From NCBI GenBank assembly GCA_037446135.1, contig JBBIJD010000001.1, positions 27,156-91,155 on the forward strand: a DNA stretch of 64,000 bases. The letters run 5' to 3'. Both the position numbers and the translations under genes were made by a program. A model generated the notes under the pieces. The model had not been told where the DNA came from and did no database searches. It saw nothing but the letters and a program-made list of their open reading frames with translations. This document shows, piece by piece, positions 15,504 through 27,471 of the stretch (the first letter of the stretch is position 1; every line of letters starts with the position of its first letter). The DNA comes from Candidatus Fraserbacteria bacterium (GTDB taxonomy: Bacteria > Bipolaricaulota > Bipolaricaulia > RBG-16-55-9 > JANLFV01).

Positions 15504-18280
15504 CCCCGGACGGAAATGGTCCTAGTCGCTGAGCTGGTATAGCCATCGTTATCGGTGACAGTCAGTGTCACGGGGTAGTCCCCGGCCTTGGGGAAGACCC
15601 ACTTGACGACCTTCCCCTCGGCGTCGGTGGCCTTATCTCCGGTGAAGTCCCATTCATACCTCACGATGTAGCCATCGGGATCGAATGAGGGCGAGCCGTC
15701 GAAGGTCACCTCCTCTCCGGCCTTCGGCTCCGCTGGGGCATAGGTGAAGTCCGCAAAGGGTGGCTGGAAGGTGACGACGATCGGGCGGGGCCGCTCGGCC
15801 GCCCCGAACTCCACTCGGAGGACCTCCCCAGGCTGGAGGAAAAGCTCGAGCCTCGTCGGGGTCGTCGGCTCATAGCGGGCCGGGAGGGTCGCAGGATCGA
15901 GGGAGAGGGAATACCTCCCGGGCAAGAGGGCGGTGAAGACGAACTCGCCCTGCGAGTCAGTGTAGGTGTCCACCAACTCGGCATCGCTCAGGATCAGTCT
16001 TACCCTCGGAAGGCCGGGCTCGCCTTCCTCTCGCCGGCCGTCCCGATTGAGGTCCTTGAAGACCACTCCCAAGATCGCCGCGGCCCTCGCTAGAGGGATG
16101 TCGAGCTTGAGGACCTCTCCCGCCTCCAGTTCGAGCTCGATCGGGAGGGCCACGGCCGGGGCCAGCTCAGCCGGGACCCGGCGGATCGTGAGGAGATACC
16201 TTCCGGGCCAGAGCGGCGGGAAGCGGTAGAACCCGGTCTTCTCCCCGTCGGAGCGGACTGTCACTTCACCGATCTGGAGGAAGACTCCGCTCACACCCGG
16301 CTCGCCGGGATCACGGGCCGAATTGCCGTCCTCATCGATGAAGATGTAGCCCTCGACCCGGGCCTTAGTGAGGATGAACGGGAGGGGGAGGTTGAACCTC
16401 AGGAGGCCTTCCAGGGCCACTCCTAGCTCCGCGGCCCCACTTACTATCGGGAGCGAGGCCCTCGTCTCGATCGCCCCTTCCCAGGCCTGGGACTCGACCG
16501 CCAGCCAGAGGGCGAGCTCGAGTCCCTCCTCGCTCCAGGCCCCGCGCAAGGCCGCGGCCAGGGCCCCCACCCGCAAGGTGAGCCCCGTCTCCAAGCCGAA
16601 GGAGGTGTCAGTGACCATCCCAGAGATGAGGTCATCGGTGAGAGCCTCGCTGAGCCGGAGGGAGAGGAGGGCCCCTCCCCCCGGCCTCAGGCTGAGCAGT
16701 TGCTCATACTGGGAGTATTGATAATCCGTCCCGGTGACGCGATCGCTCTCCCTGGTAGTGCTGGCAGTGAAAGCCAGTGTCGCCTGGCCGATGGGCTGGC
16801 TGAGGCTGGAATAGGCCGTCCTTTCCACCCGATTGACCTCGGGGGAGAGGCCCTCGCTGAACTGCTCCTCGAATTCGGCCCGGAGGCGGAGCGTGGGGAG
16901 CTCCCGCCCGAATGTATGGTAGCCGCTGAAGGAGCTGCGGATGGTGGTGATCCCCGAGACCGTCGGCCTCTGACTCAGGTTCTCCTCGCTTAAGCCAAGT
17001 GAGAGGGTGAGCAAAGGGAGGCTCGGGGAAGAGGTCCGGTAGGCCAGCTCACCGCTGACCCGATCCCCGAGGGTCGGGCCGCGGAGGGCCAGACCGAGCC
17101 GGAGGAGCGAGTCGCCGAAGTAGAACCCCAGGTGGCTGCTGAGAGCCCCGTCAATCCCCTCGGCTGTGCCACTTGCCTCCGCGGTGAGGGTGAGATCCAG
17201 GGCCCCGGCCTGGGCGATGGTGAGCCGGAGGTCATGCCGCTCCGGCGGGCCGGGATAATCCAGAAGATCGAGCTCGAGCCGCTTCAGTCCTGCCTCCGGA
17301 AGGCCGAGGTAGTTGAGCCGCAAGCTGTCGGCGGCCCGCTCGAGGAAGAAGGAGTCCCTAGCGGTGCCCCAGCCGAACAGGAGCCCCGGCTCGAGCCCCG
17401 CGAAGAGGTCGGCGAGATGGAGTTCGAGCCGGAGGGAGCTCTCTTTGCTGATCCGCCCACCGGCGAAGAGGTCGAGTGAGAGGGCCCGCTCTTCAGTGAG
17501 CAGGGGGCTCTCGAGCCGGAACTCGAGCGTCGCCGGTAGCTCGGCGTAGAGTGCCCCGCCGACCGCTTGGGGCGGTGGCGGGAGGAGGCTGATCCAGGCC
17601 GTGGCCTCGGCCTTCACCTCCGGCTTAGTGAGTGAGCTGGCCTTGAGTGTGACCCTGAGCCTCCCTATCGTGGCGGTCGGGAGGACCGTGGCGAGGACCC
17701 CGGCCCTCCGGGCCTCCCCGGGGAGGAGGTCGAGCTGGCCCTCCTCCAGCTCGGCGACGATCTCCGGTGAGCTGGTGACCTCCAGCTTGAAGGAGTCGGG
17801 GAGATTCCCGCGGTTGAGGACCACAAACTCCAGTCGGACCCGCGTGCCGGGATCGGCCTGGACCTCCGGCGGAGGGAAGACCTCGACCGCTGCTTGAGGG
17901 AGGACGATGATGATCGCAGTCGCAGAGGCAGTGATCGAGGGACTGCTCTCGGCTGTGGCCTTAAGCTGGAGGAGGTTCTCGCCCGCCTCGGCCTGAGCGG
18001 TCACGAAGACGGTGATGAAGAGTGCTTGCTCCTCATCGGTTTCCAGCTCGACCGCCGTGGGCGGGGAGACGGGCTCAAGCCCAGGAGAGGGGGAAAGCTC
18101 GAGGAGGAAGCGGTCCGCCGCGCCGCGGTTCCGGATGGAGAAGACATGGGTGACGAATTCCCCTGGTAGGGCCTGCTTCGGCGGGGAGACAGCTTCGAGC
18201 TCCACCTGGGCGAACGCGGCCGCCTGATAGAGCAGGAATAGTGATAAGATGAGGATCAGCCGGCGCATCGCGGGTCGCAC
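15500..18280 (-). CDS. Large secreted/cell-surface multi-domain protein: DUF11/CARDB-like N-terminal repeats, central beta-rich region, two Cna-B/SdrD-B-type Ig-like domains and C-terminal PKD domain
   Basis: 926 aa. Signal peptide MRRLILILSLFLLYQAAAFAQ. C-terminal PKD signature (VTFDGSPSFDPDGYIVRYEWDFGD...YPVTLTVTDNDG). Two carboxypeptidase-regulatory/SdrD-B-like repeats (YIFIDEDGNSARDPGEPGVSGV...; VFKDLNRDGRREEGEPGLPRVRL...). Middle ~350 aa has alternating hydrophobic periodicity compatible with a beta-barrel or beta-sandwich array. Confidence 0.75.
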   Translation of the reverse strand: MRPAMRRLILILSLFLLYQAAAFAQVELEAVSPPKQALPGEFVTHVFSIRNRGAADRFLLELSPSPGLEPVSPPTAVELETDEEQALFITVFVTAQAEAGENLLQLKATAESSPSITASATAIIIVLPQAAVEVFPPPEVQADPGTRVRLEFVVLNRGNLPDSFKLEVTSSPEIVAELEEGQLDLLPGEARRAGVLATVLPTATIGRLRVTLKASSLTKPEVKAEATAWISLLPPPPQAVGGALYAELPATLEFRLESPLLTEERALSLDLFAGGRISKESSLRLELHLADLFAGLEPGLLFGWGTARDSFFLERAADSLRLNYLGLPEAGLKRLELDLLDYPGPPERHDLRLTIAQAGALDLTLTAEASGTAEGIDGALSSHLGFYFGDSLLRLGLALRGPTLGDRVSGELAYRTSSPSLPLLTLSLGLSEENLSQRPTVSGITTIRSSFSGYHTFGRELPTLRLRAEFEEQFSEGLSPEVNRVERTAYSSLSQPIGQATLAFTASTTRESDRVTGTDYQYSQYEQLLSLRPGGGALLSLRLSEALTDDLISGMVTDTSFGLETGLTLRVGALAAALRGAWSEEGLELALWLAVESQAWEGAIETRASLPIVSGAAELGVALEGLLRFNLPLPFILTKARVEGYIFIDEDGNSARDPGEPGVSGVFLQIGEVTVRSDGEKTGFYRFPPLWPGRYLLTIRRVPAELAPAVALPIELELEAGEVLKLDIPLARAAAILGVVFKDLNRDGRREEGEPGLPRVRLILSDAELVDTYTDSQGEFVFTALLPGRYSLSLDPATLPARYEPTTPTRLELFLQPGEVLRVEFGAAERPRPIVVTFQPPFADFTYAPAEPKAGEEVTFDGSPSFDPDGYIVRYEWDFTGDKATDAEGKVVKWVFPKAGDYPVTLTVTDNDGYTSSATRTISVRG

Positions 18281-18357: not shown

Positions 18358-19371
18358 CTAGCCCCGGGACAGGAGTCCCCGGAGGAGGGCCACATCCTCG
18401 CCGTCGGCATCCCCGTCGTTATCGAAATCGAAGGCCGGCCAATTGTTCTGGACCCCAGCGGTGGTGAGGTTCGCCTCCAGGAGGTCCGGGTCAGCGGCGG
18501 TAAAGGCCCCATCGCCGTCCACATCCTCGTAGAAGCCGTCCCCATCGAGGTCCTGTGGCGGATTCGCCGCTCCTCCGATCGGGATGAGCTTGAGCTCAGG
18601 GACATCGAAAATGAGCTGCCCCGCGGGGAGATAATCGGGACTCCCGAAGTCGAGGACCGCCAGGGCATAGTATCGGCCCGGTGCGGGGCGAGGTGAGGAG
18701 CCCCGAGCTCGGGCCTCCCGGACCGCCCCGGGGAGGATCGGGAACTGGGCCACCTCGATCCGCTCCACTAGTTCGCCCCGAGCATCTAGGACTTGGACCT
18801 CCCCGCTCACCCGGAGGTGGATATCCCCGGTGTTCTCGAAGCCGATGAGGAAAGTGAGCGGGTTGAGCCCGAGCCGCTGGACCCCGGTGATCCGGCCGGC
18901 TCTCGTGCCGGTCCAAGGTGGGGTCTCATAGACCTTGATCCCGAACCGGGGGACCACCATTACCGTCGTCCCGCCCCGCTCTTGCGGCCGGGGCCGCCCC
19001 TCGACCATGATCATCCCCCAATAGGTCCCCTGGACATCGGGCGGGACAGTGATGGTGAACCGGACCTCGCGGGCCTCATCGGGCTTAAGGGAGAAGCTCG
19101 TGGGGGTCACGGTGATCCAGGCGGTATTCGAGCGAGGGAGGCTCCCCGGCTCATAGAAGCGGTGATTCCCCTCGACATCCCGGTCCCAGTCGACGAGGTA
19201 GACCTTGATGTCGTCGGTGATCTGTTCATCGTTGTGGACGAGGAAGGAGAAGGTCCCGCTCCCACCGGCCGGGACCTGGAGGTCGAACTCGATCTGGGAG
19301 ACCTCCAGGGCTGAGGAGGTCAGGAGCACCGCCGCAAGGGTCAAGAGGAGAATAAAGCTCTTCCTCAGCAT
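18358..19371 (-). CDS. Secreted protein with an N-terminal Ig-like domain resembling pilus-chaperone (PapD-like)/DUF916-type domains and a C-terminal dockerin-like Ca-binding repeat pair
   Basis: 337 aa. Signal peptide MLRKSFILLLTLAAVLLTSSA. LEVSQIEFDLQVPAGGSGTFSFLVHNDEQITDDIKVYLVDW parallels the chaperone pattern (RIxY...KSVSLTVxN...PYLVQSW). The C-terminus has two dockerin-type repeats: DLDGDGFYEDVDGDG...DPDLLEANL and DFDNDGDADGEDVALLRGLL. Confidence 0.6.
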   Translation of the reverse strand: MLRKSFILLLTLAAVLLTSSALEVSQIEFDLQVPAGGSGTFSFLVHNDEQITDDIKVYLVDWDRDVEGNHRFYEPGSLPRSNTAWITVTPTSFSLKPDEAREVRFTITVPPDVQGTYWGMIMVEGRPRPQERGGTTVMVVPRFGIKVYETPPWTGTRAGRITGVQRLGLNPLTFLIGFENTGDIHLRVSGEVQVLDARGELVERIEVAQFPILPGAVREARARGSSPRPAPGRYYALAVLDFGSPDYLPAGQLIFDVPELKLIPIGGAANPPQDLDGDGFYEDVDGDGAFTAADPDLLEANLTTAGVQNNWPAFDFDNDGDADGEDVALLRGLLSRG

Positions 19372-19436: not shown

Positions 19437-19958
19437 CTAGGCGCTCGTCAGGGTGTAGACGATCTGGAGGGTATAGCTCCCCGGTGGGTCCTCTTCCCAG
19501 GCGAGGAGGACCCTGAAATGGGTATTCACGAGGATATTATTCCCTCTATTCCCCGCGGCCACCTGGACTTCGTTGATGGTCATCCCGGTATAGTCGGGCT
19601 GGGTCGCGGTCACTCGCGGGTCGGTGGAGGAGGACTTCCACTCCAGATCTTCACAGGGCTTATTCGGGTCCGGCCAAGTCCCAGTGTAAGTCCAAGTCGG
19701 GGCTGTGGCCCAGACATTGACCTGCCAGTTGACATTGCTCCTGACTTTGAGCGTCTGGGCGGGAGAGATCTCCTTATAGCCCCTCTCGTAGTCGTCTGCC
19801 GTCAGGTCCCCGAAGTCGACGAGATTGGGGTCCACCGTCAAGCGGAGAGCCGCTAGCGCGGTCGCTTGAACAGTCGTATTTTGGCTTGTCTGGGCCAAGC
19901 CCGCAAGGCCGAGGAGCAGAACCAAACCTGCTGCCAGAAGCCATCTCAATCTTGCCAT
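19437..19958 (-). CDS. Small secreted beta-rich protein, paralog A of a three-member family (pilin/SCPU-like or WxL-like C-terminal strand)
   Basis: 173 aa. Signal peptide MARLRWLLAAGLVLLLGLAGLAQT. Thr/Ser/Asn-rich. C-terminus PGSYTLQIVYTLTSA matches paralogs B (PGDYSITLEYTATSL) and C (PGDYHVTLTYTITTD). Confidence 0.8.
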   Translation of the reverse strand: MARLRWLLAAGLVLLLGLAGLAQTSQNTTVQATALAALRLTVDPNLVDFGDLTADDYERGYKEISPAQTLKVRSNVNWQVNVWATAPTWTYTGTWPDPNKPCEDLEWKSSSTDPRVTATQPDYTGMTINEVQVAAGNRGNNILVNTHFRVLLAWEEDPPGSYTLQIVYTLTSA

Positions 19959-19984: not shown

Positions 19985-20060
19985 GTGGCTTCGGCAGCCT
20001 GGCAGTCCGTGGAGGACCCACGGCTTTGCGCCCCCATGTCGCCATGGGTTCGCCTTTTCG
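19985..20060 (-). promoter_or_regulatory. GEMM-like (c-di-GMP-I class) riboswitch motif in the 5' UTR of paralog A
   Basis: RNA sense: AAGGCGAACCC-[CCCAUG GCGA CAUGGG]-GGCGCAAAGCC-[CCGUGG guccu CCACGG]...GGCUGCCGAAGCC. Shows the GEMM hallmarks GGCAAACC and GGRCGCAAAGCY around a P1 hairpin with a GNRA tetraloop, then P2. The same architecture occurs twice upstream of paralog C with compensatory changes in the P1 stem. Confidence 0.7.
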
Positions 20061-20075
20061 GTCCACTTAAACAAT

Positions 20076-20190: not shown

Positions 20191-20211
20191 CCGAAATGAG
20201 CGACTAACCGG

Positions 20212-20754
20212 TTACAGAGAGGTTGCGGTGTATTCCAGGGTGATGCTGTAATCTCCGGGGATGTCCTGTTCGTCCGAGGTATACTTGTAGGCCATATGGA
20301 AGTAGGCCGCGCCCGGCTTCTCCCCGGTCCCGGCCTTCATCATCTGATTGAATCCCGGGAAGCTGACATAGCTCCCCTGGTAGCCGCTGACATTCCCCTC
20401 GACTTTGGCGACCTTCCAGGCGAAGTCAGCGAGGATGTCCCCTTCAAAGCCCGGAGGGGTGGTAGCCTCGACGGCCTGGACGGCCAGGACATAGCCGTTA
20501 TGGCAGTTGGTCCTGAGGGAGACGATGTTCCCTTCGGTGTCCTCTAGGATCTGATCCGGCCCGGTGATCGTCCCCAGGAAGACATCCTGGTGGACATTGA
20601 GGGTGATCCAACAGTTGGCATTCCAGTAGACCGTGGTCTTCCCGCCGTCCCCGGCCCCGAGGGAGATCGTCCCCCAGAGGGCCGCGATCGCTAATGCCGC
20701 GAGGGTCGCTACCTTCAGGGTCTTTCCTATTCTCTTCATCGGTGTTACCTCCAT
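20212..20754 (-). CDS. Small secreted beta-rich protein, paralog B
   Basis: 180 aa. Signal peptide (MKRIGKTLKVATLAALAIAALWG). C-terminal PGDYSITLEYTATSL. No riboswitch upstream; instead an 11-bp-periodic TGGAAr repeat array. Confidence 0.8.
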   Translation of the reverse strand: MEVTPMKRIGKTLKVATLAALAIAALWGTISLGAGDGGKTTVYWNANCWITLNVHQDVFLGTITGPDQILEDTEGNIVSLRTNCHNGYVLAVQAVEATTPPGFEGDILADFAWKVAKVEGNVSGYQGSYVSFPGFNQMMKAGTGEKPGAAYFHMAYKYTSDEQDIPGDYSITLEYTATSL

Positions 20755-20825
20755 CTTCTCTTCCTAGGTCAGGTTTCTGACCTTTCGTCTCGCCTCGGAG
20801 TTTAAGTCACCCCCGCTGGAGGGTC

Positions 20826-20895: not shown

Positions 20896-22158
20896 TTAGG
20901 GCTTCTTAGCAGGGAGGGCCCTGGCCCCTCCGAGCCGCTTTGCCCGGTAGAGGGCCCGGTCGGCCTGCTCGATCAGCTCGTCCGGCGAGGCCCCGTCCTC
21001 GGGGAAGCCGGCCACTCCGGCGCTGAAGCTGGCCCTGAAGGGCTCGGATTGCTCAGGGGCTTGGAACCGCTGCTCATGGAACTCCCCTTGGAGCCTGGTC
21101 AGGGCCGCCACGGCCCGGGGCTTGATGGTCTCGGGGAGGATGAGGGCGAACTCATCCCCGCCGTAGCGGGCGGGTAGGTCGCTCTTCCGTCCCTTGGACT
21201 TGATGAGCTCGGCCAGGGCCTTCAGGACGGAGTCGCCCATCCGATGGCCATAGCGGTCGTTGATCGCCTTGAACCGGTCGAGGTCGAGGAGGGCCAGGGA
21301 GAAGACCCTTCCATACCTTCTGCTCCGCTCGAGGGTGCAGCGGAGCTTCTCCTGGAAGGCCCGGTGGTTGTAGAGCCCGGTCAGGCCATCGAGGTCCGCC
21401 AGCTCGGTGAGCACCCGGTTCCGCTCGAGCCGGGCGGCGATCCGGGCGATCAGCTCCTCAGGGTAGAACGGCTTAGTGATGTAGTCGTCCGCCCCGGCCT
21501 CCAGGCCCCGGACCTTGGTCGCCACATCGCCCCTCCCGGTGAGGAAGAAGATCGGGAGCTTCTGGAACTCCACCTCCCGGCGGAGGGAGGCGCAGAGCTC
21601 CAGTCCGGTCAGCTTCGGCATCTCGATGTCCAGGAGCAAGAGGTCCGGCTTGAACTCCCTCAGGGTTGAGAGCGCCTCCGTCGGGTCTTGCAAGGCCTTG
21701 GTGGCGAACCCCGCTTGGCGGAGATGCCCCCCGACGAGCTCCAAGAGGTGAGGATCATCATCGACGATCGCGATCCTCAAGCGGTCGCCTCCTCCCTTTG
21801 GCTCTTGCTCAAGCTCGAACTTGAGCCCAAGCGCCGCTTCGGCCCGCTGGAGCTCCTCCTCCAGCTCGCGAAGGAGGGCCCGGAGCCTTCCCAGTTCCGG
21901 GGCGGCCAGCGGCCTGTTCTGAAGCTGGAGGGCCTCTTCCATCTCCTGAGCCAGCTCGGAGAGCCGAGGGTAGCCGTAGGAGCCGCCGCTCCCCTTGAGC
22001 CGATGGGCCCGCTCCAAGAGGGCCGCCATGGGGGCTTCAGCCTGAGGATCGGCCTCGAGGTCATTGAGCAACTGTCCGAAGAGGTTGAGGGCCCCGCGGA
22101 CCTCCTCGAGGTAGAGCCTTCGCAAGCCCTCCAATCCTTCTTCCATAGGTTCCACCAT
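20896..22158 (-). CDS. Hpt-REC-GGDEF signalling protein (diguanylate cyclase with receiver and N-terminal histidine phosphotransfer domain)
   Basis: 420 aa. Hpt HxxKG motif (ERAHRLKGSGGSYG). REC (IAIVDDDP...LLLDIEMP...DDYITKPF). GGDEF with intact active site RYGGDEF and a putative I-site (RRYGRV...). Confidence 0.9.
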   Translation of the reverse strand: MVEPMEEGLEGLRRLYLEEVRGALNLFGQLLNDLEADPQAEAPMAALLERAHRLKGSGGSYGYPRLSELAQEMEEALQLQNRPLAAPELGRLRALLRELEEELQRAEAALGLKFELEQEPKGGGDRLRIAIVDDDPHLLELVGGHLRQAGFATKALQDPTEALSTLREFKPDLLLLDIEMPKLTGLELCASLRREVEFQKLPIFFLTGRGDVATKVRGLEAGADDYITKPFYPEELIARIAARLERNRVLTELADLDGLTGLYNHRAFQEKLRCTLERSRRYGRVFSLALLDLDRFKAINDRYGHRMGDSVLKALAELIKSKGRKSDLPARYGGDEFALILPETIKPRAVAALTRLQGEFHEQRFQAPEQSEPFRASFSAGVAGFPEDGASPDELIEQADRALYRAKRLGGARALPAKKP

Positions 22159-22181
22159 TGGGAAGGATAAGGCCCTCAGGC

Positions 22182-22220
22182 TGGAATATCGATGGAAGTG
22201 GGCTGGAAATCTGATGGAAG
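22182..22220. promoter_or_regulatory. Four TGGAA(T/G/A) direct repeats at 11-bp spacing upstream of the Hpt-REC-GGDEF gene
   Basis: cTGGAAT atc gATGGAAG tgg gcTGGAAAT ctg ATGGAAG. TGGAA cores at 22182, 22193, 22204 and 22215, located 25-65 nt upstream of the GGDEF start codon and just after the RR stop. Confidence 0.5.
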
Positions 22221-22227
22221 CGGGGGG

Positions 22228-22905
22228 CTACCCCGCCAACTTATACCCGAACCCGCGGACGGTGAGGATCAGTTCGGGGTTCTGCGGGTCCCGCTCGATC
22301 CGCTTGCGGAGGAGGTAAATGTATTTTTGCACATCGCCGGGGCGGGCGAAGCTGCTCCCCGGCCAGAGATGGTCGATGATCTCCCGATCGGAGAAGACCC
22401 TCCCCCGCTCTGAAGCTAAGAGGAGCAGGAGCTCATACTCCTTGGGGGAGAGGCTCACCACCTCTCCTCGGACCTGGACGGTCTTGCTCTTATCGTCGAT
22501 GGTGAGCGGCCCGACCTCAATGAGCGCCTCTTTCGGGGCCGCCCCGGCCCGCCGGAGGACCGCCTCGATCCGGAGGGCCACCTCCATGAGGTCGAACGGC
22601 TTCCTGATATAGTCGTCGGCCCCGAGGGTGAACCCCTGGATCGTATCTATCGGCGAGTCCCGGGCGGTGAGCATCAGCACTGGGGTGGAGCTGCCTTCCC
22701 GGATCCGCCGGAGCACCTCCCAGCCATCCATCCCCGGGAGCATCACATCGAGGAGGACCAGGTCCGGCCGCTCCTTAGCGAAGGCCTCCAGGGCCTTTGG
22801 GCCGTCCTCGGCGGTGAGGACCTCATACCCGCGGGAGCTGAGGAAGGCTCGGAGGAGCCTCAAGATATCAGGGTCGTCATCGACGAGGAGGATCTTCTTA
22901 GCCAT
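22228..22905 (-). CDS. OmpR-family response regulator (REC + winged-helix)
   Basis: 225 aa. KILLVDDDP...LVLLDVMLPGMDGW...DDYIRKPF, plus trans_reg_C (LSPKEYELLLLLASERGRVFSDREIIDHLW...TVRGFGYKLA). About 60% identity by eye to the second RR at 39014. Confidence 0.95.
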   Translation of the reverse strand: MAKKILLVDDDPDILRLLRAFLSSRGYEVLTAEDGPKALEAFAKERPDLVLLDVMLPGMDGWEVLRRIREGSSTPVLMLTARDSPIDTIQGFTLGADDYIRKPFDLMEVALRIEAVLRRAGAAPKEALIEVGPLTIDDKSKTVQVRGEVVSLSPKEYELLLLLASERGRVFSDREIIDHLWPGSSFARPGDVQKYIYLLRKRIERDPQNPELILTVRGFGYKLAG

Positions 22906-25075
22906 CCTGATCAGTCAGTCCTCCGTCCAGCCCGAGCTTGAGCCAGCTCTTGGAGAGCGGGAGCCTGACGGTGAACTTCGTCCCCGCATTCGGCTTGCTC
23001 TCGACCCTGATCTCCCCGCCGTGACGGTCGATCGTGGCCTTGACGATCGCCAGCCCCAGGCCGGTCCCCGTGGCCTCCCGGACATAGGGGTTGGTGGAGC
23101 GGAAGAACCTGGTGAAGAGCCGGCCGAGCTCCTCCGCGTCCATCCCGATCCCGGTATCCGTGACCTCGACGATCGCCTCCCCGGCCACGGTGTCGGCCCG
23201 GGCCCGGAGGCTCACCTTCCCCTCCTTGGTGTATTTGATGGCATTGGAGAGGAGGTTGGCGAAGGCCCGAGCGAGGTAGTCGGCATCACCTTTGACCTGG
23301 AGCCCTTCCTCCAGCTCGACCTCCAGGGCCAATCCCTTCTCCCGGGCATTGACGGCGAAAGTGGCGGCCACATCCCTCAAGATTTCGTCGAGCGCGAGGT
23401 CCCTTAGCTCGATCTTCCGCTCCCCCGACTCGAGCCGCTCGATGTCCAGGAGGTCGTTGACCAGTTTGGTCAGGCGGTCGGCGTTCCGGGAGATAACCTG
23501 GAGGAACTCCTCCTGGGCCGGATTGAGGGGGCCGGTCTCCCCGGCCAAGAGGAGGTCGGCATACCCTTTGATCGAGGTGAGCGGGGTCCGAAGCTCATGG
23601 GAGACGGTGGCGAGGAACTCGGCCTTCAGTTGCTCCAGTCGCTTCTGAGCGGTGATATCCCGCATCATCCCTTGATAGCCCACCAGCCGCCCCGCGCTGT
23701 CCTTGATGGCCACACTGATCTCGTGGACCGTCCTCATTGAGCCGTCCTTGTGCTTATACGCTAGTTCCATGTCTACATAGCCGTCCCGCGCCAGTCGCCG
23801 GTGGAACTCCTCCCGCTGGGCCGGGTCGGCATAATTCTCGCAGAGGTCCATCCGGATCAGCTCCTCTTCCCTGTAGCCGAGAAGCTTCCTCACCGCCGGG
23901 TTGACATCGACGAGTCGGCCTTGAGAATCGCAGACATAGATCACATCGGCGCTATTCTCGAAGAGGTTGCGGTAGCGCTCCCCTGAGCGGCGGAGTTCCT
24001 CCTCAGCTTGCTCGCGTCTAGCAAGCATCTCATTGATCGAGCGAGCCAGGCTCGCCAGCTCATCGCCCCCTTTGGAGGGGAGGCGGGCCGAGAGGTCGCC
24101 GCTCGCCGTGACCCGGCGGACAGCCCGCTCGAGTCGGGCCAGCTTAGCCAGGACACCCCTCTCGAGCAGGAGGAGGGCGGTGGCCGTGAAGACCAGGCCG
24201 ATGGTAGAGAGGGCCAACATGAAGTAGTTCAAGCTCGCCAGCCCTTGGCTGTAGATGGTCCGCGGGAGGTCCACCCTCAAGATGAGGGCCGGCTGGCCGT
24301 AGATATCTCGGAGCAGGGCATAGCCGGCGACCCGCTCCCGGTCGAGCCGCTGGACAGGGAGCGTCGTCGCCCCTGTCCCCGCTAAGAGGGCCGTGCGGGC
24401 CGCGGCGAAGGCCGGGTCTTCTAGGGCTAGTCCTGGCTCATCAACTCGCCGGAATGCTAGTGAGAGGTCCGTCAACTCCGCCAGTTGAGCGACCTTAGCA
24501 GCATCGAGGTAGCGGCCCATGATGAGCGAGCCCCGGCTCGGGCCGGTCTTCTCGCTGGTGAGGATCGGCCTGGCGGCCAAGAGGAGTGGCCCCTCCGCTA
24601 GAAGGAGGAGCCCAGTCAGCCCCTCTTTGGGAGGCTCCTCGCGGGGCCGGAGGAGCGGGCTCTCAGGGGTGAGACTGTTCAAGAGGCCCTCTGGGACTGG
24701 CACCTCCCTTCTCTCCTGGAGGTCGAAGGCCTTGGCGAAGACGATCCTCCCCGAGGAGTGGACGAAGACCATCAAGTTCAAGCCGAGCTCGCTGAAGGTC
24801 TGATCGACGAGGTTGGAGCGGATATACTCCGGATTGGCGTCCTCGATGAAGGCATAGGTATCGTCCCAACCGGCCCAATCGCCGACGAGGGCGCTCAGCT
24901 TGGCCTGGTCATCGGCTAGCGCGTTCAGGGTTCGCTCGACCTCCCTTCGGGTGGCCTGCTCTTCCAGGGCCAGGAAGCCCCCGAGGAAGAGCGACCGGAG
25001 GACGAGATACATGATGGCTACTGAGCAGAGGAGCACTGAGCCGATAGTGATCAGCGTCTTCTTCCGTAGGGTCAT
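22898..25075 (-). CDS. Sensor histidine kinase with extracytoplasmic sensor domain, HAMP, PAS, HisKA and HATPase_c
   Basis: 725 aa. N-terminal TM segment, ~270-aa periplasmic region, a second TM, HAMP-like linker, PAS (DVIYVCDSQGRLVDVNPAV), H-box (ATVSHELRTPLTSI), and N/G boxes (LSNAIKYT, DTGIGM, GTGLGLAIV). Confidence 0.9.
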   Translation of the reverse strand: MTLRKKTLITIGSVLLCSVAIMYLVLRSLFLGGFLALEEQATRREVERTLNALADDQAKLSALVGDWAGWDDTYAFIEDANPEYIRSNLVDQTFSELGLNLMVFVHSSGRIVFAKAFDLQERREVPVPEGLLNSLTPESPLLRPREEPPKEGLTGLLLLAEGPLLLAARPILTSEKTGPSRGSLIMGRYLDAAKVAQLAELTDLSLAFRRVDEPGLALEDPAFAAARTALLAGTGATTLPVQRLDRERVAGYALLRDIYGQPALILRVDLPRTIYSQGLASLNYFMLALSTIGLVFTATALLLLERGVLAKLARLERAVRRVTASGDLSARLPSKGGDELASLARSINEMLARREQAEEELRRSGERYRNLFENSADVIYVCDSQGRLVDVNPAVRKLLGYREEELIRMDLCENYADPAQREEFHRRLARDGYVDMELAYKHKDGSMRTVHEISVAIKDSAGRLVGYQGMMRDITAQKRLEQLKAEFLATVSHELRTPLTSIKGYADLLLAGETGPLNPAQEEFLQVISRNADRLTKLVNDLLDIERLESGERKIELRDLALDEILRDVAATFAVNAREKGLALEVELEEGLQVKGDADYLARAFANLLSNAIKYTKEGKVSLRARADTVAGEAIVEVTDTGIGMDAEELGRLFTRFFRSTNPYVREATGTGLGLAIVKATIDRHGGEIRVESKPNAGTKFTVRLPLSKSWLKLGLDGGLTDQDG

Positions 25076-25187: not shown

Positions 25188-25709
25188 TCAATCGGTGGTG
25201 ATGGTGTAGGTCAGGGTCACATGGTAGTCTCCCGGCCTATGATGCTCGCGGTCGAAGAGGATGAGGTAGTCCACCTCCACCTTTTGGCGCCCGCTCGGGC
25301 CATGAGCGATGACCTGATCGGAGTTGCTGACCGGGCGATAGGACTCGCTCCCCACGCGGAGCTGGAAGTCGCTGAGCGGCTTGGTGTAGCGGCCGTCATA
25401 GCTCCTTCCGAGGTCGGGCTCGGCGGCCCGGACCGCCAGCCTCCAGTGGACATTGCTGGCGGCGATGAGGGTGAGCGCCCTAGGGATCTCGCGGTAGCCC
25501 CGCTCCAGGTCCGCTTCGCTCGGCTGAGGGAGCACAAATGTCGTCGTGACGGCCTGGTCGGTCTGGCCCTCGAGTGAGAGGCGGGCGAAAGGGAGGACAG
25601 TCCAAGAGATCGTCGTCCTAGCGGAGTCACCTGTCCCTAGAGCCTGGGCACTGAGGAATAACGAGAGACCGAGAAGAAGCAAGCCGGAGATGACCGCTCT
25701 TCTTGCCAT
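25188..25709 (-). CDS. Small secreted beta-rich protein, paralog C
   Basis: 173 aa. Signal peptide MARRAVISGLLLLGLSLFLSAQA. C-terminal PGDYHVTLTYTITTD. Preceded by tandem GEMM-like riboswitch motifs. Confidence 0.8.
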   Translation of the reverse strand: MARRAVISGLLLLGLSLFLSAQALGTGDSARTTISWTVLPFARLSLEGQTDQAVTTTFVLPQPSEADLERGYREIPRALTLIAASNVHWRLAVRAAEPDLGRSYDGRYTKPLSDFQLRVGSESYRPVSNSDQVIAHGPSGRQKVEVDYLILFDREHHRPGDYHVTLTYTITTD

Positions 25710-25915: not shown

Positions 25916-25945
25916 TATTATACACCGAGTGAGCGGGCTTGACAA
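25916..25945 (-). promoter_or_regulatory. Near-consensus sigma70 promoter (minus strand TTGTCA-17 nt-TATAAT) for the tandem riboswitch-paralog C transcript
   Basis: Minus-strand reading: ggcTTGTCAagcccgctcactcggtgTATAATacc. Overlaps the 3' end of the HD-GYP gene. Confidence 0.6.
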
Positions 25946-27471
25946 GCCCCTTCGGGCGGGGAAGGTCCTTTCGGGCTCAGATCCAGATTGTATCCCCTCT
26001 CGAAGAGCCGGAGGCAGGCCTCGCCAGCTTGGGGGTCGTAGAGCCGCCCCTTGTGCTTGGCGATCTCTCCCAAGGCCTCCTCGATGGCATGGGCCGGGCG
26101 GTAGGGCCGGTGAGAGGCCACCGCCTCCACCACATCGGCCACCGCTAGAATTCGGGCCTCGAGCATGATCTCTTCCCCCTTGAGCCCCCGGGGGTAGCCC
26201 GAGCCGTCGAGCCGCTCGTGGTGCTGGAGGACGATCTCAGCCACCGGCCAGGGGAAGTCGATCTGCCTCAAGACCTCATAGCCGGCCTGGGGATGGACCC
26301 GCACCAGCCCCAACTCGGCCGGATTGAGCCTCCCCGGCTTGCTCAGGATCTCCGCGGGGATATAGATCTTCCCGATGTCGTGGACCTGAGCGGCCATCCT
26401 GAGCCCGGCGATCCGGTCCTGAGGGAGGCCCATCTCCTGGGCGATCGCGCAGGCCAGCTCCGCCACCCGCCGCTGGTGCCCCGCGGTGTAGGGGTCCCGG
26501 ACCTCGACGGTGGTGGCGAGGACATCGACCATCTGCTCCAGGAGCCGCTCCAGCCGCTCATGACTCTCCCGGAGGGCCTCAAACAGCCGGAGGTTCTCCA
26601 AGGCCACAGCGGTGGCATTGGCCAAAGCCTCGAGGAGCTGGCAGTCCTCGGAGGTGAAGGCATTCAACTCCTGGCTCTCGGCGTTGAGGGCCCCGAGGAC
26701 CCGCTCCCCCGCCTTCAAGGGGACGCAGAGCTCAGAGCGGTTGGCGAACCGCCCCCCGACGAACCGTGGGTCCTTGGTCACATCCGGGAGGAGGATCATC
26801 TCCCCAGAGCGGGCCACGGCGGGGATGATCCCCCGCTCGCTAGCGAGGGGGAACTCCTCCGGGCCGGGGGGCCGTCCAAGAGTGTGGGCGACACAGATGA
26901 GCCGCTCGGCCTTCTCGTCCACTAGGAAGAGGCCGCAGTCCTCGAGCCCGAGGACCTCCCGGGCCGCCTCCACCGCCGCTTGGGCGATCTCCTCCTCGCT
27001 CCGGGAGAGGATCAACCTTCGGCCCAGGGCGTAGATCCCGGCCAGGCCCCGCTCGAGCCGCTTCCGCTCGGTGATGTCCCTCAGGATCGTCTGGAGGCCG
27101 ACGACCTTCCCCGCCTGCCTGATCGGGTTGCTCCGGTAGTCCGCGATCCTCGGCCCCTTGGGGGTGGTGAGCTCGATCTCCCCTTGGATCGGCTCCCCTC
27201 GGCTTATCCGGGCGAGCTCCTCGAGCAGCCGGGGATGGTAGCGCTCGGGGACGAACTCGAGCATATTCTTCCCGACCAGGTCCTCCTTGCGGAAGCCATA
27301 TTCTGCAGCGGCCCGGTTCACGGCCGTCACATTCCCTTCAAGGTCGAAGGTGACAATGACATCCCTAGCGTCCTCGAAGAGCTCGCGATAGGCCCCTTCC
27401 GCCCGCTCAAGCTCAGCCACCCGCAGCCGGAGCTGCTCGAGCTCTAACCCCTCTCGTGCCTCCGGTCTCAA
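25918..27471 (-). CDS. PAS-GAF-HD-GYP protein (c-di-GMP phosphodiesterase, HD-GYP class)
   Basis: 517 aa. HD motif (VHDIGKI) and HHERLDGSGYP (the GYP signature). N-terminal PAS and GAF regions. Confidence 0.9.
   Translation of the reverse strand: MRPEAREGLELEQLRLRVAELERAEGAYRELFEDARDVIVTFDLEGNVTAVNRAAAEYGFRKEDLVGKNMLEFVPERYHPRLLEELARISRGEPIQGEIELTTPKGPRIADYRSNPIRQAGKVVGLQTILRDITERKRLERGLAGIYALGRRLILSRSEEEIAQAAVEAAREVLGLEDCGLFLVDEKAERLICVAHTLGRPPGPEEFPLASERGIIPAVARSGEMILLPDVTKDPRFVGGRFANRSELCVPLKAGERVLGALNAESQELNAFTSEDCQLLEALANATAVALENLRLFEALRESHERLERLLEQMVDVLATTVEVRDPYTAGHQRRVAELACAIAQEMGLPQDRIAGLRMAAQVHDIGKIYIPAEILSKPGRLNPAELGLVRVHPQAGYEVLRQIDFPWPVAEIVLQHHERLDGSGYPRGLKGEEIMLEARILAVADVVEAVASHRPYRPAHAIEEALGEIAKHKGRLYDPQAGEACLRLFERGYNLDLSPKGPSPPEGACQARSLGV

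What the first reader, a model, noticed from the sequence alone, without database searches (positions are those of the whole stretch)
20896..22158. Hpt-REC-GGDEF architecture next to an unrelated hybrid-less HK/RR pair
The diguanylate cyclase carries its own N-terminal Hpt-like domain (ERAHRLKGSGGSYG) ahead of a receiver domain and an intact GGDEF active site with a putative RxxD I-site. An Hpt fused to REC-GGDEF is uncommon and suggests the protein both receives phosphoryl groups and can shuttle them, possibly cross-talking with the neighbouring kinase, which lacks its own Hpt/REC.
Basis: partly seen in the sequence, partly recalled or inferred. Interest (0 to 1): 0.5.

Follow-up and report, generated by a model that had tools for sequence, protein, structure and literature searches.

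The report
Hpt-fused cyclase in riboswitch circuit
The gene really encodes a c-di-GMP-making enzyme carrying its own phosphate-relay (Hpt) domain, an uncommon but widespread and unstudied layout, and it sits in a compact circuit (sensor kinase, DNA-binding regulator with candidate binding-site arrays, c-di-GMP-degrading enzyme, three c-di-GMP riboswitches) around surface-protein genes of an uncultured Bipolaricaulia bacterium.

Summary
Observation confirmed. ORF 20896..22158 (minus strand, 420 aa; likely true start Met5 at 22146) scores as Hpt + REC + GGDEF. The phospho-His (H52), the receiver residues (D134/D135/D177/T207/K229), GGDEF and the RxxD I-site are all intact.

Interpretation partly supported. 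The fusion is a minority of REC-GGDEF proteins (0 of 23 background genes) but recurs across many phyla, mostly as Hpt-REC-REC-GGDEF. I found no experimental study of it.

The Hpt is CheA-P1-like, on a disordered ~18-residue tether. The REC-GGDEF part is DgcR-like.

Best reading: the last two stations of a phosphorelay (His2 to Asp2) are fused to the cyclase. Distant relatives have hybrid kinases without Hpt, or stand-alone receivers, next door.

The neighbouring CHASE4 kinase/OmpR pair is not unrelated:
- it is syntenic in related genomes, co-oriented, with no terminator in between;
- arrays of TTCCA repeats at 11-bp spacing, found nowhere else in the window, precede the cyclase gene and the next gene.

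Three c-di-GMP-I riboswitch aptamers precede the flanking small secreted-protein genes, and an HD-GYP phosphodiesterase lies upstream. The donor that charges the Hpt remains unknown.

The parts
20896..22158 (-). Hpt-REC-GGDEF gene (420 aa; probable true start ATG 22146, giving 416 aa)
   Evidence: ORF; Pfam; 100%-identical database protein P0001 starts at Met5; GGTGG lies 5 nt upstream of ATG 22146
21856..22125 (-). Hpt domain (residues 12-101; helices 3-36, 41-60, 64-78, 86-109). Phospho-acceptor His52 is codon 22003-22005 in the motif AHRLKGSGGSYG.
   Evidence: Pfam 49.4 bits; His52 and G56 invariant in 93/93; four-helix model, pLDDT above 90; closest solved relatives are CheA P1 domains
21775..21831 (-). 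Flexible tether between Hpt and REC (residues ~110-128)
   Evidence: AF2 pLDDT below 50 at residues 115-118 and 120-123, with no secondary structure from 110 to 127
21439..21774 (-). Receiver domain (residues 129-240): D134, D135, phospho-acceptor D177 (codon 21628-21630), T207, K229. The long alpha5 helix 233-255 runs into the DxLT hinge (D257-T260).
   Evidence: Pfam 102 bits; acceptor Asp 92/92 and Lys 92/92 in the GGDEF-proximal REC of the family; orthologous to that REC in 74/74 comparisons; model
20926..21399 (-). GGDEF cyclase domain (residues 254-411). GGDEF motif at 21148-21162; RxxD I-site (R324-K-S-D327) at 21178-21189.
   Evidence: Pfam 152.5 bits; catalytic and I-site residues invariant or nearly invariant in A1 and A4; best structural match DgcR 6zxb, target TM-score 0.70
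22182..22219 (-). Array A: four perfect TTCCA units at exactly 11-bp spacing (alternating TTCCAT / TTCCAGCC, a 22-bp super-repeat), starting 9 nt after the regulator's stop codon. It is followed 12 nt later by the -10-like hexamer TATCCT (22164-22169).
   Evidence: conserved in L001-L004 and upstream of the 44%-identical gene in L005
20817..20876 (-). Array B: six phased units (TTCCA, TTCCA, TTCCT, TTTCA, TTCCA, CTCCA) upstream of the 180-aa gene, followed 12 nt later by TAAACT (20799-20804)
   Evidence: conserved in L003/L004
22228..22905 (-). OmpR/PhoB-family response regulator (REC + winged helix), overlapping the kinase gene by 8 nt
   Evidence: Pfam Response_reg 110 bits and Trans_reg_C 74.4 bits; unusual recognition helix GDVQKYIYLLRKRIE
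22898..25075 (-). Sensor kinase CHASE4-HAMP-PAS-HisKA-HATPase_c, not hybrid
   Evidence: Pfam; only two kinase cores and three REC domains in the 64 kb
25918..27471 (-). PAS-GAF-HD-GYP protein (HD at residue 364, HHERLDGSGYP at 417-427), a candidate c-di-GMP phosphodiesterase
   Evidence: Pfam HD_5 at 3.5e-42, plus GAF and PAS_4; motifs; present in L001/L002, absent from L003/L004
25711..25903 (-). Tandem c-di-GMP-I-clan riboswitch aptamers (25804-25903 and 25711-25785) in the leader of the 173-aa gene
   Evidence: Rfam RF03167, 76.2 and 74.4 bits (gathering score 59); conserved in L001 and L003
25917..25945 (-). Sigma-70-like promoter TTGTCA-17-TATAAT just upstream of the tandem aptamers
   Evidence: 11 of 12 matches; sequence
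19989..20063 (-). Single c-di-GMP-I-clan aptamer in the leader of the 173-aa gene 19437..19958, preceded by an extended -10 (TGTATAAT)
   Evidence: Rfam 61.0 bits (gathering score 59); orthologous aptamer in L003 scores 52.5 bits on RF01051; sequence
25188..25709 (-). Small secreted protein (173 aa), riboswitch-led; paralogue of the protein encoded at 19437..19958
20212..20754 (-). Small secreted protein (180 aa), preceded by array B and followed by a strong terminator-like hairpin (20158-20192)
19437..19958 (-). Small secreted protein (173 aa), riboswitch-led
18358..19371 (-). 337-aa two-domain beta-sandwich protein (PapD-like / WxL-interacting-protein-like) with a C-terminal dockerin
15500..18280 (-). 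926-aa surface protein (SdrD_B and PKD domains), the last gene of the cluster
   Evidence: Pfam; syntenic in L003/L004 and L125

Best explanation
The gene encodes a phosphorylation-controlled diguanylate cyclase of the DgcR/WspR type. The last histidine station of a multistep phosphorelay is fused to its own N-terminus.

Shown by sequence and model: a CheA-P1-like four-helix Hpt with an invariant His52, an ~18-residue disordered tether, a complete receiver (Asp177), a long alpha5 helix ending in a DxLT hinge, and a GGDEF domain with catalytic residues and an RxxD product-inhibition site.

Inferred mechanism: His52 is charged from the aspartyl-phosphate of another protein's receiver. It passes the phosphoryl group to Asp177, in cis or across the dimer. 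Phospho-Asp177 switches the alpha5 coiled-coil register so that the two GGDEF domains pair and make c-di-GMP. c-di-GMP at the I-site caps the output.

Inferred circuit in this genome:
- The CHASE4 kinase and OmpR-type regulator encoded just upstream control transcription of the cyclase gene and of the next gene, through the 11-bp-phased TTCCA arrays.
- The c-di-GMP produced acts on three c-di-GMP-I riboswitch aptamers in the leaders of the flanking small secreted-protein genes of a PapD/WxLIP-like surface-assembly cluster.
- The upstream PAS-GAF-HD-GYP protein degrades the signal.

The donor that charges the Hpt here is not identified. No hybrid kinase or stand-alone receiver lies in the 64 kb, so it is either encoded elsewhere or is the OmpR-type regulator's receiver.
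For: Domains and residues.

Model: pLDDT 93.8, four helices at the N-terminus, disordered residues 110-127, alpha5 at 233-255. The best structural match is DgcR 6zxb, then PleD and WspR. The DgcR activation mechanism is from PMC8041772.

The window's REC is the orthologue of the GGDEF-proximal REC of two-REC relatives (74/74). That REC keeps Asp and Lys in 92/92, while the middle REC is less conserved (Asp 71/79).

The Hpt profile is closest to CheA P1 domains, which donate to CheY-type receivers. The closest Hpt clusters are mostly ChpA/CheA-like.

Relay context in relatives:
- L122: cyclase, then HK-REC-REC, then a solo REC.
- L006: cyclase, HK, solo REC.
- L121: HK-REC, REC, REC, HK, cyclase.
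- L007: solo REC plus a divergent HK-REC.
- L120 and L123: a hybrid kinase 3-6 kb away.
- P0021's contig: a solo REC upstream.
This is 6 of 6 loci plus P0021's contig, against 8 of 19 background REC-GGDEF loci. The unfused arrangement, a kinase ending in Hpt directly followed by a REC-GGDEF gene, occurs in L093; L092 and L119 show contig-truncated genes ending in Hpt beside a REC-GGDEF gene.

Known relays that end on REC-GGDEF enzymes: PMC4436077 and PMC9927289.

Circuit:
- Synteny and promoter/terminator layout.
- TTCCA-N6-TTCCA occurs 4 times in 64 kb, all flanking this gene, against 0.06 expected.
- Arrays of four or more units occur only next to short-form Hpt-REC-GGDEF genes in 1.78 Mb. 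They are conserved in L001-L005, with weaker versions in L088 and L091.
- Riboswitch aptamers score above the gathering threshold. They recur in L001, L003 and L125, and beside the short-form cyclases of L088 and L091.
- The HD-GYP motifs are intact.
Against: - No phosphodonor for the Hpt is visible. The window has only two non-hybrid kinases and no stand-alone REC. Short-form relatives have either a plain HK/OmpR pair (window clade, L005) or no signalling neighbour at all (L088, L091).
- The neighbourhood enrichment rests on about seven loci, and the background is already 42%.
- The stand-alone RECs lack the FATGUY motif of known REC-only intermediaries.
- The regulator next to the window gene and the one in L005 have different DNA-recognition helices although the TTCCA array is conserved. 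L088 and L091 have arrays without an adjacent regulator. So the binder of the arrays is unproven.
- Phosphorylation can inhibit rather than activate a REC-GGDEF enzyme, as in SiliDGC (PMC4436077).
- The aptamers score best on the RF03167 variant model, whose ligand I could not verify. At the position where the two consensus sequences differ, however, they carry the classic A.
- The relative placement of the domains in the model is uncertain (pTM 0.69), and no coordinates were available to measure the His52-Asp177 distance.
Confidence: 0.55

Rival explanations
1. Branched two-component system. The CHASE4 kinase phosphorylates both the OmpR-type regulator and Asp177 of the cyclase directly. The Hpt works in reverse, drawing phosphate off Asp177 as a sink or buffer, or passing it between the two regulators. 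This is essentially the first reader's 'shuttle / cross-talk' idea.
For: The only kinase in the operon is non-hybrid. HK, RR and cyclase are co-oriented, syntenic and probably co-transcribed. A second, independent short-form gene (L005) also sits beside a plain HK/OmpR pair. Hpt-REC transfer is reversible in known relays (established knowledge).
Against: The cyclase REC is not specially similar to the regulator's REC: 72 bits, rank about 95 of 191, with different alpha1 residues. So shared kinase specificity is not indicated. Short-form genes in L088 and L091 have no kinase nearby. Long-form relatives are organised as forward relays.
Confidence: 0.22
2. Relay routed through the transcription factor. 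Kinase His passes to the OmpR regulator's Asp, then to cyclase His52, then to Asp177. The same phosphorylated regulator would switch on the cyclase gene through the TTCCA arrays and also supply the phosphate that activates the enzyme, forming a coherent feed-forward loop.
For: The regulator's REC is the only receiver encoded near the Hpt. It occupies the gene position that stand-alone RECs hold in relatives. Array A starts 9 nt after its stop codon. Adjacency to an OmpR-type regulator recurs in L005.
Against: I know of no precedent for a DNA-binding OmpR-family regulator acting as the Asp1 donor to an Hpt. Its REC is an ordinary OmpR-class REC, unrelated to the solo RECs. The regulators in the window and L005 differ in recognition helix. 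L088 and L091 lack an adjacent regulator.
Confidence: 0.13
3. Split-CheA logic. Because the Hpt is P1-like, His52 would be phosphorylated directly from ATP by a CheA-type catalytic core supplied in trans, as CheA4 does to the P1 of CheA3 in Rhodobacter. His52 then donates to Asp177, like WspE to WspR.
For: The Hpt profile matches CheA P1 at 54 bits (E 1.8e-13), against E 4e-4 or worse for BarA, LuxU, ArcB and Ypd1. 87 of the 150 closest Hpt clusters are multi-Hpt ChpA/CheA-like proteins. CheW lies next to P0021, and CheB and CheD lie near the L121 cyclase.
Against: No CheA, CheW or chemoreceptor gene was detected in the window. Similar Hpt domains also end ordinary HK-REC-Hpt kinases. Most relatives have hybrid HisKA kinases next door, not CheA cores.
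Confidence: 0.06
4. The Hpt is a structural or regulatory appendage, for example a dimerisation or autoinhibitory module, and does not transfer phosphate.
For: No donor can be identified locally. The tether would allow the bundle to dock on and mask the receiver.
Against: His52, G56 and G62 of the phosphotransfer motif are invariant or nearly invariant across 93 family members from several phyla. That is hard to explain without phosphotransfer.
Confidence: 0.04

Closest known systems
DgcR of Leptospira biflexa (prototypic REC-GGDEF cyclase; PDB 6zxb/6zxm; PMC8041772)
   Same: One REC, an extended alpha5 helix, a DxLT hinge, a GGDEF domain with an I-site. It is the best structural match (target TM-score 0.70, 32% identity) and matches the NCBIfam DgcR profile over residues 129-413.
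   Different: DgcR has no Hpt. The window protein scores 173.6 bits against a 500-bit equivalog cutoff, so it is not a DgcR orthologue.
PleD of Caulobacter (REC-REC-GGDEF)
   Same: Top sequence match among solved structures (E 1e-51). The I-site context RxxD-LPxRYGG[D/E]EF is alike (PleD motif from memory). Most relatives of the window protein are Hpt + REC-REC-GGDEF.
   Different: In PleD the first REC is phosphorylated and the second is an adaptor (established knowledge). In this family the GGDEF-proximal REC is the fully conserved one and is the one the window protein kept. The NCBIfam PleD score is 217.5 against a cutoff of 474.
SiliHK - SiliHpt - SiliDGC relay of Silicibacter sp. TrichCH4B (PMC4436077)
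   Same: A hybrid kinase without Hpt, then an Hpt, then a REC-GGDEF. This is the component set seen around the long-form relatives.
   Different: There the Hpt is a free protein, and phosphorylation inhibits the cyclase. Here the Hpt is fused to the cyclase, and the sign of regulation is unknown.
CdgK - CdgS of Anabaena PCC 7120 (PMC9927289)
   Same: A His-Asp-His-Asp relay ending on a REC-GGDEF that is activated by phosphorylation. The unfused arrangement of a kinase ending in Hpt followed by a REC-GGDEF gene is also seen in L093.
   Different: The Hpt is at the C-terminus of the kinase, not at the N-terminus of the cyclase.
WspE to WspR of Pseudomonas (CheA-type P1 Hpt feeding a REC-GGDEF) and CheA P1 domains (1tqg, 1i5n, 3kyi)
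   Same: The window's Hpt family is closest to P1 domains. WspR is among the top structural matches for the REC-GGDEF part (3bre, 3i5a).
   Different: No CheA catalytic core, CheW or receptor gene is present in the window. The P1-like domain is on the cyclase.
PhoB pho boxes and Bacillus PhoP boxes (direct repeats at 11-bp periodicity replacing the -35 element; from memory)
   Same: Four to six direct repeats at exactly 11-bp spacing, abutting a -10-like hexamer, with no good -35, next to an OmpR/PhoB-family regulator gene.
   Different: The repeat core is TTCCA, not TGTCA or TTAACA. Binding is untested, and the neighbouring regulators of the window and L005 differ in recognition helix.
Tandem c-di-GMP-I riboswitches upstream of adhesin or surface-protein genes (PMC9481103)
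   Same: A doublet of class I aptamers in one leader, plus a singlet upstream of a paralogous gene. The downstream genes encode secreted surface proteins.
   Different: The best-scoring model is the RF03167 'GGC' variant, although the aptamers carry the classic A at the position where the two consensus sequences differ. The host is an uncultured Bipolaricaulia bacterium, and a dedicated cyclase is inserted among the target genes.

Membership tests
Hpt domain (PF01627) | Profile score above the curated cutoff | tested here: met
   49.4 bits against 24.6, E 5.5e-13, residues 12-101
Hpt domain (PF01627) | Four-helix bundle with a solvent-exposed phospho-acceptor His in an HxxKG motif | tested here: met
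   Helices 3-36, 41-60, 64-78 and 86-109 with pLDDT above 90. H52-R-L-K-G56, with His and Gly invariant in 93/93. Solvent exposure was not measured because no coordinates were available.
Hpt domain (PF01627) | Reversible phosphotransfer between His and a receiver Asp | not testable with these tools
   Needs radiolabel or Phos-tag phosphotransfer assays
Receiver domain (PF00072), phosphorylatable | Acidic pocket, acceptor Asp, Thr/Ser and Lys all present | tested here: met
   D134, D135, D177, T207 and K229; 102 bits
Active GGDEF diguanylate cyclase | Intact GG[D/E]EF with metal- and substrate-binding residues | tested here: met
   G333-G-D-E-F337. D292, N300, D309, R331 and K407 are invariant or nearly invariant. 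152.5 bits.
Active GGDEF diguanylate cyclase | RxxD inhibitory site five residues upstream of GGDEF | tested here: met
   R324-K-S-D327, then LPARY, then GGDEF; R324 and D327 at least 90% conserved
Active GGDEF diguanylate cyclase | c-di-GMP synthesis from GTP | not testable with these tools
   Needs an enzyme assay
PleD family (NCBIfam NF007135) | Equivalog score; REC-REC-GGDEF with a phosphorylated first REC | tested here: not met
   217.5 bits against a cutoff of 474; only one REC
DgcR (NCBIfam NF047654) | Equivalog score | tested here: not met
   173.6 bits against a cutoff of 500. The fold and linker layout are alike.
Multistep His-Asp-His-Asp phosphorelay | An upstream Asp1 station (hybrid kinase REC or stand-alone REC) available to charge the Hpt | tested here: inconclusive
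   None in the 64-kb window. Present next to the long-form relatives in 6 of 6 loci plus P0021's contig. The rest of the genome could not be searched.
CheA / Wsp-type chemosensory pathway | CheA catalytic core, CheW and a receptor encoded with the P1-type Hpt | tested here: not met
   Only two HisKA-type kinase cores in the window. The Hpt is P1-like by profile.
OmpR/PhoB-type activator-dependent promoter | Tandem direct repeats at about one helical turn, placed next to a -10 element and replacing the -35 | tested here: met
   4 and 6 units at 11 bp, followed 12 nt later by TATCCT or TAAACT. Geometry conserved in L001, L003 and L005.
OmpR/PhoB-type activator-dependent promoter | Bound by the cognate phosphorylated regulator | not testable with these tools
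   Indirect evidence is mixed: adjacency in two lineages, but different recognition helices
c-di-GMP-I riboswitch clan (CL00126) | Covariance-model score above the gathering threshold over the full model | tested here: met
   76.2, 74.4 and 61.0 bits against 59 on RF03167, model positions 1-80 of 80. The L003 orthologue scores 52.5 against 35 on RF01051.
c-di-GMP-I riboswitch clan (CL00126) | Binds c-di-GMP and changes expression of the downstream gene | not testable with these tools
   The aptamers carry A where the RF03167 consensus has G and RF01051 has A. Ligand and ON/OFF sense are untested.
Chaperone-usher chaperone (PapD-like) or WxL-interacting protein | Two tandem Ig-like beta-sandwich domains matching solved members | tested here: inconclusive

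The most novel reading that the evidence does not exclude
The OmpR-type regulator does two jobs for the same enzyme. When phosphorylated, it binds the phased TTCCA arrays to switch on the Hpt-REC-GGDEF gene. Its receiver also hands phosphate to the cyclase's own Hpt (kinase His, regulator Asp, cyclase His52, cyclase Asp177). c-di-GMP would then be made only while the sensor kinase stays active. It is read out digitally by tandem riboswitches on surface-fibre genes. This would be a phosphorelay routed through a DNA-binding response regulator, wired as a coherent feed-forward loop, in a small-genome uncultured phylum.
Probability: 0.12. Interest if true: 0.7.

Novelty: new variant of a known kind. 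Interest (0 to 1): 0.45.

Why it matters
Phosphorelays that end on c-di-GMP cyclases are known with the Hpt free (Silicibacter) or on the kinase (Anabaena). The third layout, with the Hpt on the cyclase, is widespread in sequence databases, but I found no study of it.

It raises concrete questions:
- Does tethering the Hpt insulate the last relay step or speed it up?
- Does transfer occur in cis or across the dimer?
- Can a non-hybrid kinase/regulator pair feed it?

This locus is a good test case because every part of a c-di-GMP circuit is within 12 kb:
- sensor kinase and regulator;
- candidate regulator-binding arrays;
- cyclase and HD-GYP phosphodiesterase;
- three riboswitch aptamers, and the surface-protein genes they precede.

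All of these can be tested in vitro with purified parts, which matters because Bipolaricaulia are uncultured. The locus also provides a conserved cis-element (TTCCA at 11-bp phase) and a phylum-specific, riboswitch-controlled surface-assembly cluster that were not part of the original finding.

Tried and rejected
1. Genome-collection scan with the full-length alignment. The tool keyed on a generic REC motif, and none of the 80 loci held an Hpt-GGDEF gene. I reused them as a background sample only.
2. Word-index homologue search with the Hpt region alone found nothing. It was replaced by the exhaustive representative search.
3. The first Hpt-only alignment was too divergent for the metagenome scan. 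A narrower alignment worked but mostly retrieved HK-REC-Hpt kinases.
4. Looking beyond the window edge for a hybrid kinase returned only a 2-kb read-assembly contig.
5. I tested whether the OmpR regulator's REC resembles the stand-alone RECs that neighbour long-form relatives. It does not; they rank 67th to 167th of 191.
6. I tested whether those stand-alone RECs carry the FATGUY motif of REC-only intermediaries (PMC9981736). They do not.
7. I tested whether the regulators next to the window gene and the L005 gene share a recognition helix, which would tie them to the shared TTCCA array. They do not.
8. Pfam at E up to 5 on the three small secreted proteins gave no hit. A WxL-domain resemblance rests only on a C-terminal motif recalled from memory.
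9. Literature searches for 'Hpt-REC-GGDEF' and related terms found no described example.
10. The paper defining the RF03167 variant is not held.
11. I considered whether the true start lies upstream, which would fuse the protein to something else. I rejected this because a stop codon lies 23 codons upstream and no start codon intervenes.
Full report

Yes. Coordinates 20896..22158 hold one 420-aa ORF on the minus strand. Pfam finds three domains in the stated order:

| Domain | Residues | Bits | Curated cutoff | E-value |
|---|---|---|---|---|
| Hpt | 12-101 | 49.4 | 24.6 | 5.5e-13 |
| Response_reg | 129-240 | 102 | 30.2 | 2.7e-29 |
| GGDEF | 254-411 | 152.5 | 23.8 | 1.1e-44 |

- The receiver has D134, D135, D177, T207 and K229.
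- The cyclase has RYGGDEF (333-337). RKSD (324-327) lies five residues upstream, the canonical I-site position.
- The probable true start is Met5 (ATG 22146), which is preceded by GGTGG and matches the 100%-identical database protein P0001. This does not affect the Hpt.
- Close homologues are annotated as Candidatus Bipolaricaulia / Acetothermia.

**2. How unusual is the architecture?**

I mapped the three query segments onto the 120 best homologues with local HMMs.

| Architecture | Count |
|---|---|
| Hpt-REC-REC-GGDEF | 35 |
| REC-Hpt-REC-REC-GGDEF | 25 |
| REC-REC-REC-GGDEF (no Hpt) | 23 |
| Hpt-REC-REC-GGDEF-REC | 19 |
| Hpt-REC-GGDEF (the window's form) | 6 |
| Hpt-REC-GGDEF-REC | 5 |

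- Source names span Acetothermia, Pseudomonadota, Myxococcota, Actinomycetota, Thermoanaerobaculia, Thermodesulfobacteriota and Clostridia.
- In contrast, none of 23 REC-containing GGDEF genes in 80 loci drawn on a generic REC motif has an Hpt.
- An exhaustive search of 1.84 billion cluster representatives with the Hpt region alone gave 430 clusters at E ≤ 0.001. Of the best 150, 87 are multi-Hpt ChpA/CheA-like proteins, 34 are solo Hpts, 9 are Hpt+GGDEF and 3 are HK-REC-Hpt.
- So the fusion is a minority form of REC-GGDEF, but it is recurrent and phylogenetically wide.
- Full-text searches found no described or characterised example, and no solved structure has it.

**3. Anatomy**

- Across 93 family Hpt domains, His52 and G56 are invariant and G62 nearly so. 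That argues for a working phosphotransfer site.
- In two-REC relatives the GGDEF-proximal REC keeps the acceptor Asp and the Lys in 92/92. The middle REC is less conserved (Asp 71/79). A REC placed before the Hpt is often degenerate (Asp 12/27).
- The window's single REC is the counterpart of the GGDEF-proximal one (higher score in 74 of 74 within-protein comparisons). The short form is therefore Hpt plus the conserved receiver plus the cyclase.
- AlphaFold2 with a 92-sequence alignment gives mean pLDDT 93.8 and pTM 0.69:
  - four long helices (3-36, 41-60, 64-78, 86-109), with His52 on the second;
  - a disordered tether at about 110-127 (pLDDT below 50 at 115-123);
  - a standard receiver, and a long alpha5 helix (233-255) leading to D257-G-L-T260;
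  - the GGDEF fold.
- Foldseek ranks Leptospira DgcR first (6zxb, target TM-score 0.70), then WspR and PleD.
- For DgcR, pseudo-phosphorylation switches the register of the alpha5 coiled coil, so that the GGDEF domains of a constitutive dimer can pair. The I-site cross-links the domains with product (PMC8041772). I infer the same output mechanism here.
- A profile of the family's Hpt matches CheA P1 domains best (Thermotoga 1tqg, 54 bits, E 1.8e-13; also Salmonella and E. coli P1 and Rhodobacter CheA3 P1). BarA, LuxU, ArcB and Ypd1 reach only E 4e-4 to 1e-2. P1 domains donate phosphate to CheY-type receivers. The best-known P1-to-cyclase step is WspE to WspR (established knowledge).

**4. Who feeds the Hpt?**

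The window contains only two kinase cores, both non-hybrid, three REC domains and one Hpt.

Neighbourhoods of more distant relatives are informative:

| Locus | Layout |
|---|---|
| L122 | cyclase, HK-REC-REC, solo REC |
| L006 | cyclase, HK, solo REC |
| L121 | HK-REC, REC, REC, HK, cyclase |
| L007 | solo REC, cyclase, with a divergent HK-REC |
| L120, L123 | hybrid kinase 3-6 kb away |
| P0021's contig | solo REC, cyclase, CheW |

- In these loci the hybrid kinases lack their own Hpt. Kinase, Asp1 and His2-Asp2-output together make one complete relay.
- The score is 6 of 6 loci (plus P0021's contig) against 8 of 19 background REC-GGDEF loci. This is a modest enrichment on a small sample.
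- The unfused arrangement, a kinase ending in Hpt directly followed by a REC-GGDEF gene, occurs in L093. L092 and L119 show contig-truncated genes ending in Hpt beside a REC-GGDEF gene. This suggests how the fusion arose.
- Experimentally studied relays ending on REC-GGDEF enzymes exist with a free Hpt (Silicibacter, where phosphorylation inhibits; PMC4436077) and with the Hpt on the kinase (Anabaena, where it activates; PMC9927289).
- The short forms differ. The window clade and L005 sit beside a plain kinase plus an OmpR-type regulator. L088 and L091 have no signalling neighbour.
- The donor for the window's Hpt is therefore unresolved. It may be a hybrid kinase elsewhere in the genome, the OmpR regulator's receiver, or, less likely, a CheA-type core.

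**5. The neighbouring kinase/regulator pair is linked to the cyclase**

- The order 173-aa gene, CHASE4 kinase, OmpR regulator, cyclase, 180-aa gene, 173-aa gene, 337-aa gene, ~920-aa gene is conserved in Bipolaricaulia genomes whose cyclase is 78-80% identical.
- On the minus strand, promoter-like and terminator-like sites lie just upstream of the kinase (25150-25114). The next strong terminator-like hairpin (14-bp stem, 20192-20158) follows the 180-aa gene, with nothing comparable in between.
Nine nucleotides after the regulator's stop codon, TTCCA occurs four times at exactly 11-bp spacing (22219-22182). A six-unit, partly degenerate array precedes the 180-aa gene (20876-20817).
- TTCCA-N6-TTCCA occurs four times in the 64 kb, all at these two sites, against 0.06 expected. 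The three-unit pattern with up to two mismatches gives six hits, all there, against 0.03 expected.
- In 1.78 Mb of window plus fetched loci, arrays of four or more units occur only next to short-form Hpt-REC-GGDEF genes. That covers the window, L001-L004 and the 44%-identical gene of L005. L088 and L091 have TTCCA-N6-TTCCA plus degenerate units upstream of their cyclase genes.
- The units alternate TTCCAT / TTCCAGCC, a 22-bp super-repeat. Each array is followed at 9-12 nt by a conserved TAnnnT hexamer (TATCCT, TATTGT, TAAACT or TATCGT). This is the layout of PhoB/PhoP-type activator-dependent promoters (from memory).
- The natural candidate binder is the adjacent OmpR-family regulator. A caveat applies. 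Its recognition helix (GDVQKYIYLLRKRIE) is shared with the window's second regulator at 39014..39688. L005's neighbouring regulator has the canonical RTVDVHIRNLRKKLE instead. L088 and L091 have no adjacent regulator. I put the adjacent regulator as binder at roughly even odds.

**6. What the cyclase probably controls**

- An Rfam scan found three aptamers of the c-di-GMP-I clan, all on the minus strand (gathering score 59):
  - a tandem pair at 25804-25903 (76.2 bits) and 25711-25785 (74.4 bits), between a near-consensus promoter (TTGTCA-17-TATAAT, 25945-25917) and the start of the 173-aa gene 25188..25709;
  - a single aptamer at 19989-20063 (61.0 bits), between an extended -10 (TGTATAAT) and the 173-aa gene 19437..19958.
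- The best-scoring model is the RF03167 'GGC' variant. Where that consensus reads ACGC-G-AAG and the classic RF01051 consensus reads ACGC-A-AAG, all three aptamers have A. As far as I recall this is the intercalating A47 of the Vc2 aptamer, so c-di-GMP is the likely ligand. I could not read the paper that defines the variant.
- The same aptamers are found in several related loci:
  - L001 and L003;
  - upstream of two small genes in a distant Bipolaricaulota genome whose cluster has no kinase or cyclase (L125);
  - upstream of a 179-aa secreted-protein gene directly beside the short-form cyclases of L088 and L091.
- Tandem class I aptamers are known to sharpen the response (PMC9481103).
- The three small secreted proteins are distant paralogues.
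- A PAS-GAF-HD-GYP protein with intact HD and GYP motifs lies just upstream.
- The signalling module (kinase, regulator, cyclase) is thus a lineage-specific insertion into a phylum-wide, riboswitch-controlled surface-assembly cluster.

**7. Verdict**

The finding is real, and the protein is very likely an active, phosphorylation-controlled, product-inhibited cyclase with a working Hpt.

- Most probable mechanism: a relay terminus with His2 fused to Asp2 and the output (about 0.55).
- Main rival: direct phosphorylation of Asp177 by the neighbouring kinase, with the Hpt acting in reverse (about 0.2).
- Most novel reading not excluded: a relay routed through the OmpR regulator itself (about 0.12).

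As a domain architecture it is a new variant of a known kind, present in databases but unstudied as far as I could find. A specialist would find the fusion alone only mildly surprising. The value lies in the complete and testable circuit around it, and in two by-products: the phased TTCCA arrays and the riboswitch-led surface-protein genes.

Noticed in passing
window 22182-22219 and 20817-20876 (minus strand); also L001 7928-7965, L003 7924-7961 and 9321-9380, L005 3013-3050: Arrays of 4 and 6 TTCCA units at exact 11-bp spacing (a 22-bp super-repeat, TTCCAT/TTCCAGCC), each followed 9-12 nt later by a TAnnnT hexamer. In 1.78 Mb they occur only next to short-form Hpt-REC-GGDEF genes. They are likely OmpR/PhoB-type regulator sites, but the binder is unproven.
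   Followed up: yes
window 25804-25903, 25711-25785 and 19989-20063 (minus strand); L001, L003, L125, L088, L091, L122: Three c-di-GMP-I-clan riboswitch aptamers (best model RF03167, but with the classic A at the position where the consensus sequences differ). A tandem pair and a singlet lie in the leaders of two paralogous 173-aa secreted-protein genes. The same aptamers lie beside the short-form cyclases of L088 and L091, and in a distant Bipolaricaulota cluster.
   Followed up: yes
window 15500-20754 and 25188-25709 (minus strand): A Bipolaricaulota-specific surface cluster: three paralogous small secreted proteins with a shared C-terminal motif (PG.Y...[YF]T.T) and no Pfam hit; a 337-aa PapD-like/WxLIP-like two-domain protein with a dockerin; and a 926-aa SdrD_B/PKD protein. 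Whether it is a chaperone-usher-like fibre or a WxL/Csc-like surface complex is open.
   Followed up: partly
window 25918-27471 (minus strand): A PAS-GAF-HD-GYP protein with intact HD and HHExxDGxGYP motifs, a candidate c-di-GMP phosphodiesterase. It is present in L001/L002 but absent from L003/L004. The promoter of the tandem-riboswitch transcript abuts or overlaps its 3' end.
   Followed up: partly
window 37579-39688 (plus strand): A second non-hybrid kinase/OmpR-type regulator pair. Its regulator shares the unusual recognition helix (EDVKKYIYLLRNKIE against GDVQKYIYLLRKRIE), so it might bind the same TTCCA arrays.
   Followed up: no
window 22146-22158: The annotated longest ORF starts at ATG 22158. 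The -10-like TATCCT (22164-22169), GGTGG (22152-22156) and the database protein P0001 all point to Met5 (ATG 22146) as the real start, with a very short leader.
   Followed up: partly
L093 6440-11088; L092; L119: In L093 a kinase ending in Hpt is directly followed by a REC-GGDEF gene, with Hpt domains similar to the window's. L092 and L119 show contig-truncated genes ending in Hpt beside a REC-GGDEF gene. This unfused counterpart suggests that the fusion arose by domain reshuffling at this junction.
   Followed up: partly
window 54001-56000: A local dip in G+C (0.569 against about 0.64) with strong negative GC skew (-0.206). No Rfam family was found there.
   Followed up: no
window 25711-25722 and 19959-19988: The second tandem aptamer's 3' P1 strand (GCUGCCGAAGG) abuts the ATG at 25709, so the ribosome-binding site would lie inside the aptamer. 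The third aptamer's hairpin loop contains CCUCC, complementary to the downstream GGAGG. The expression platforms and the ON/OFF sense were not worked out.
   Followed up: no
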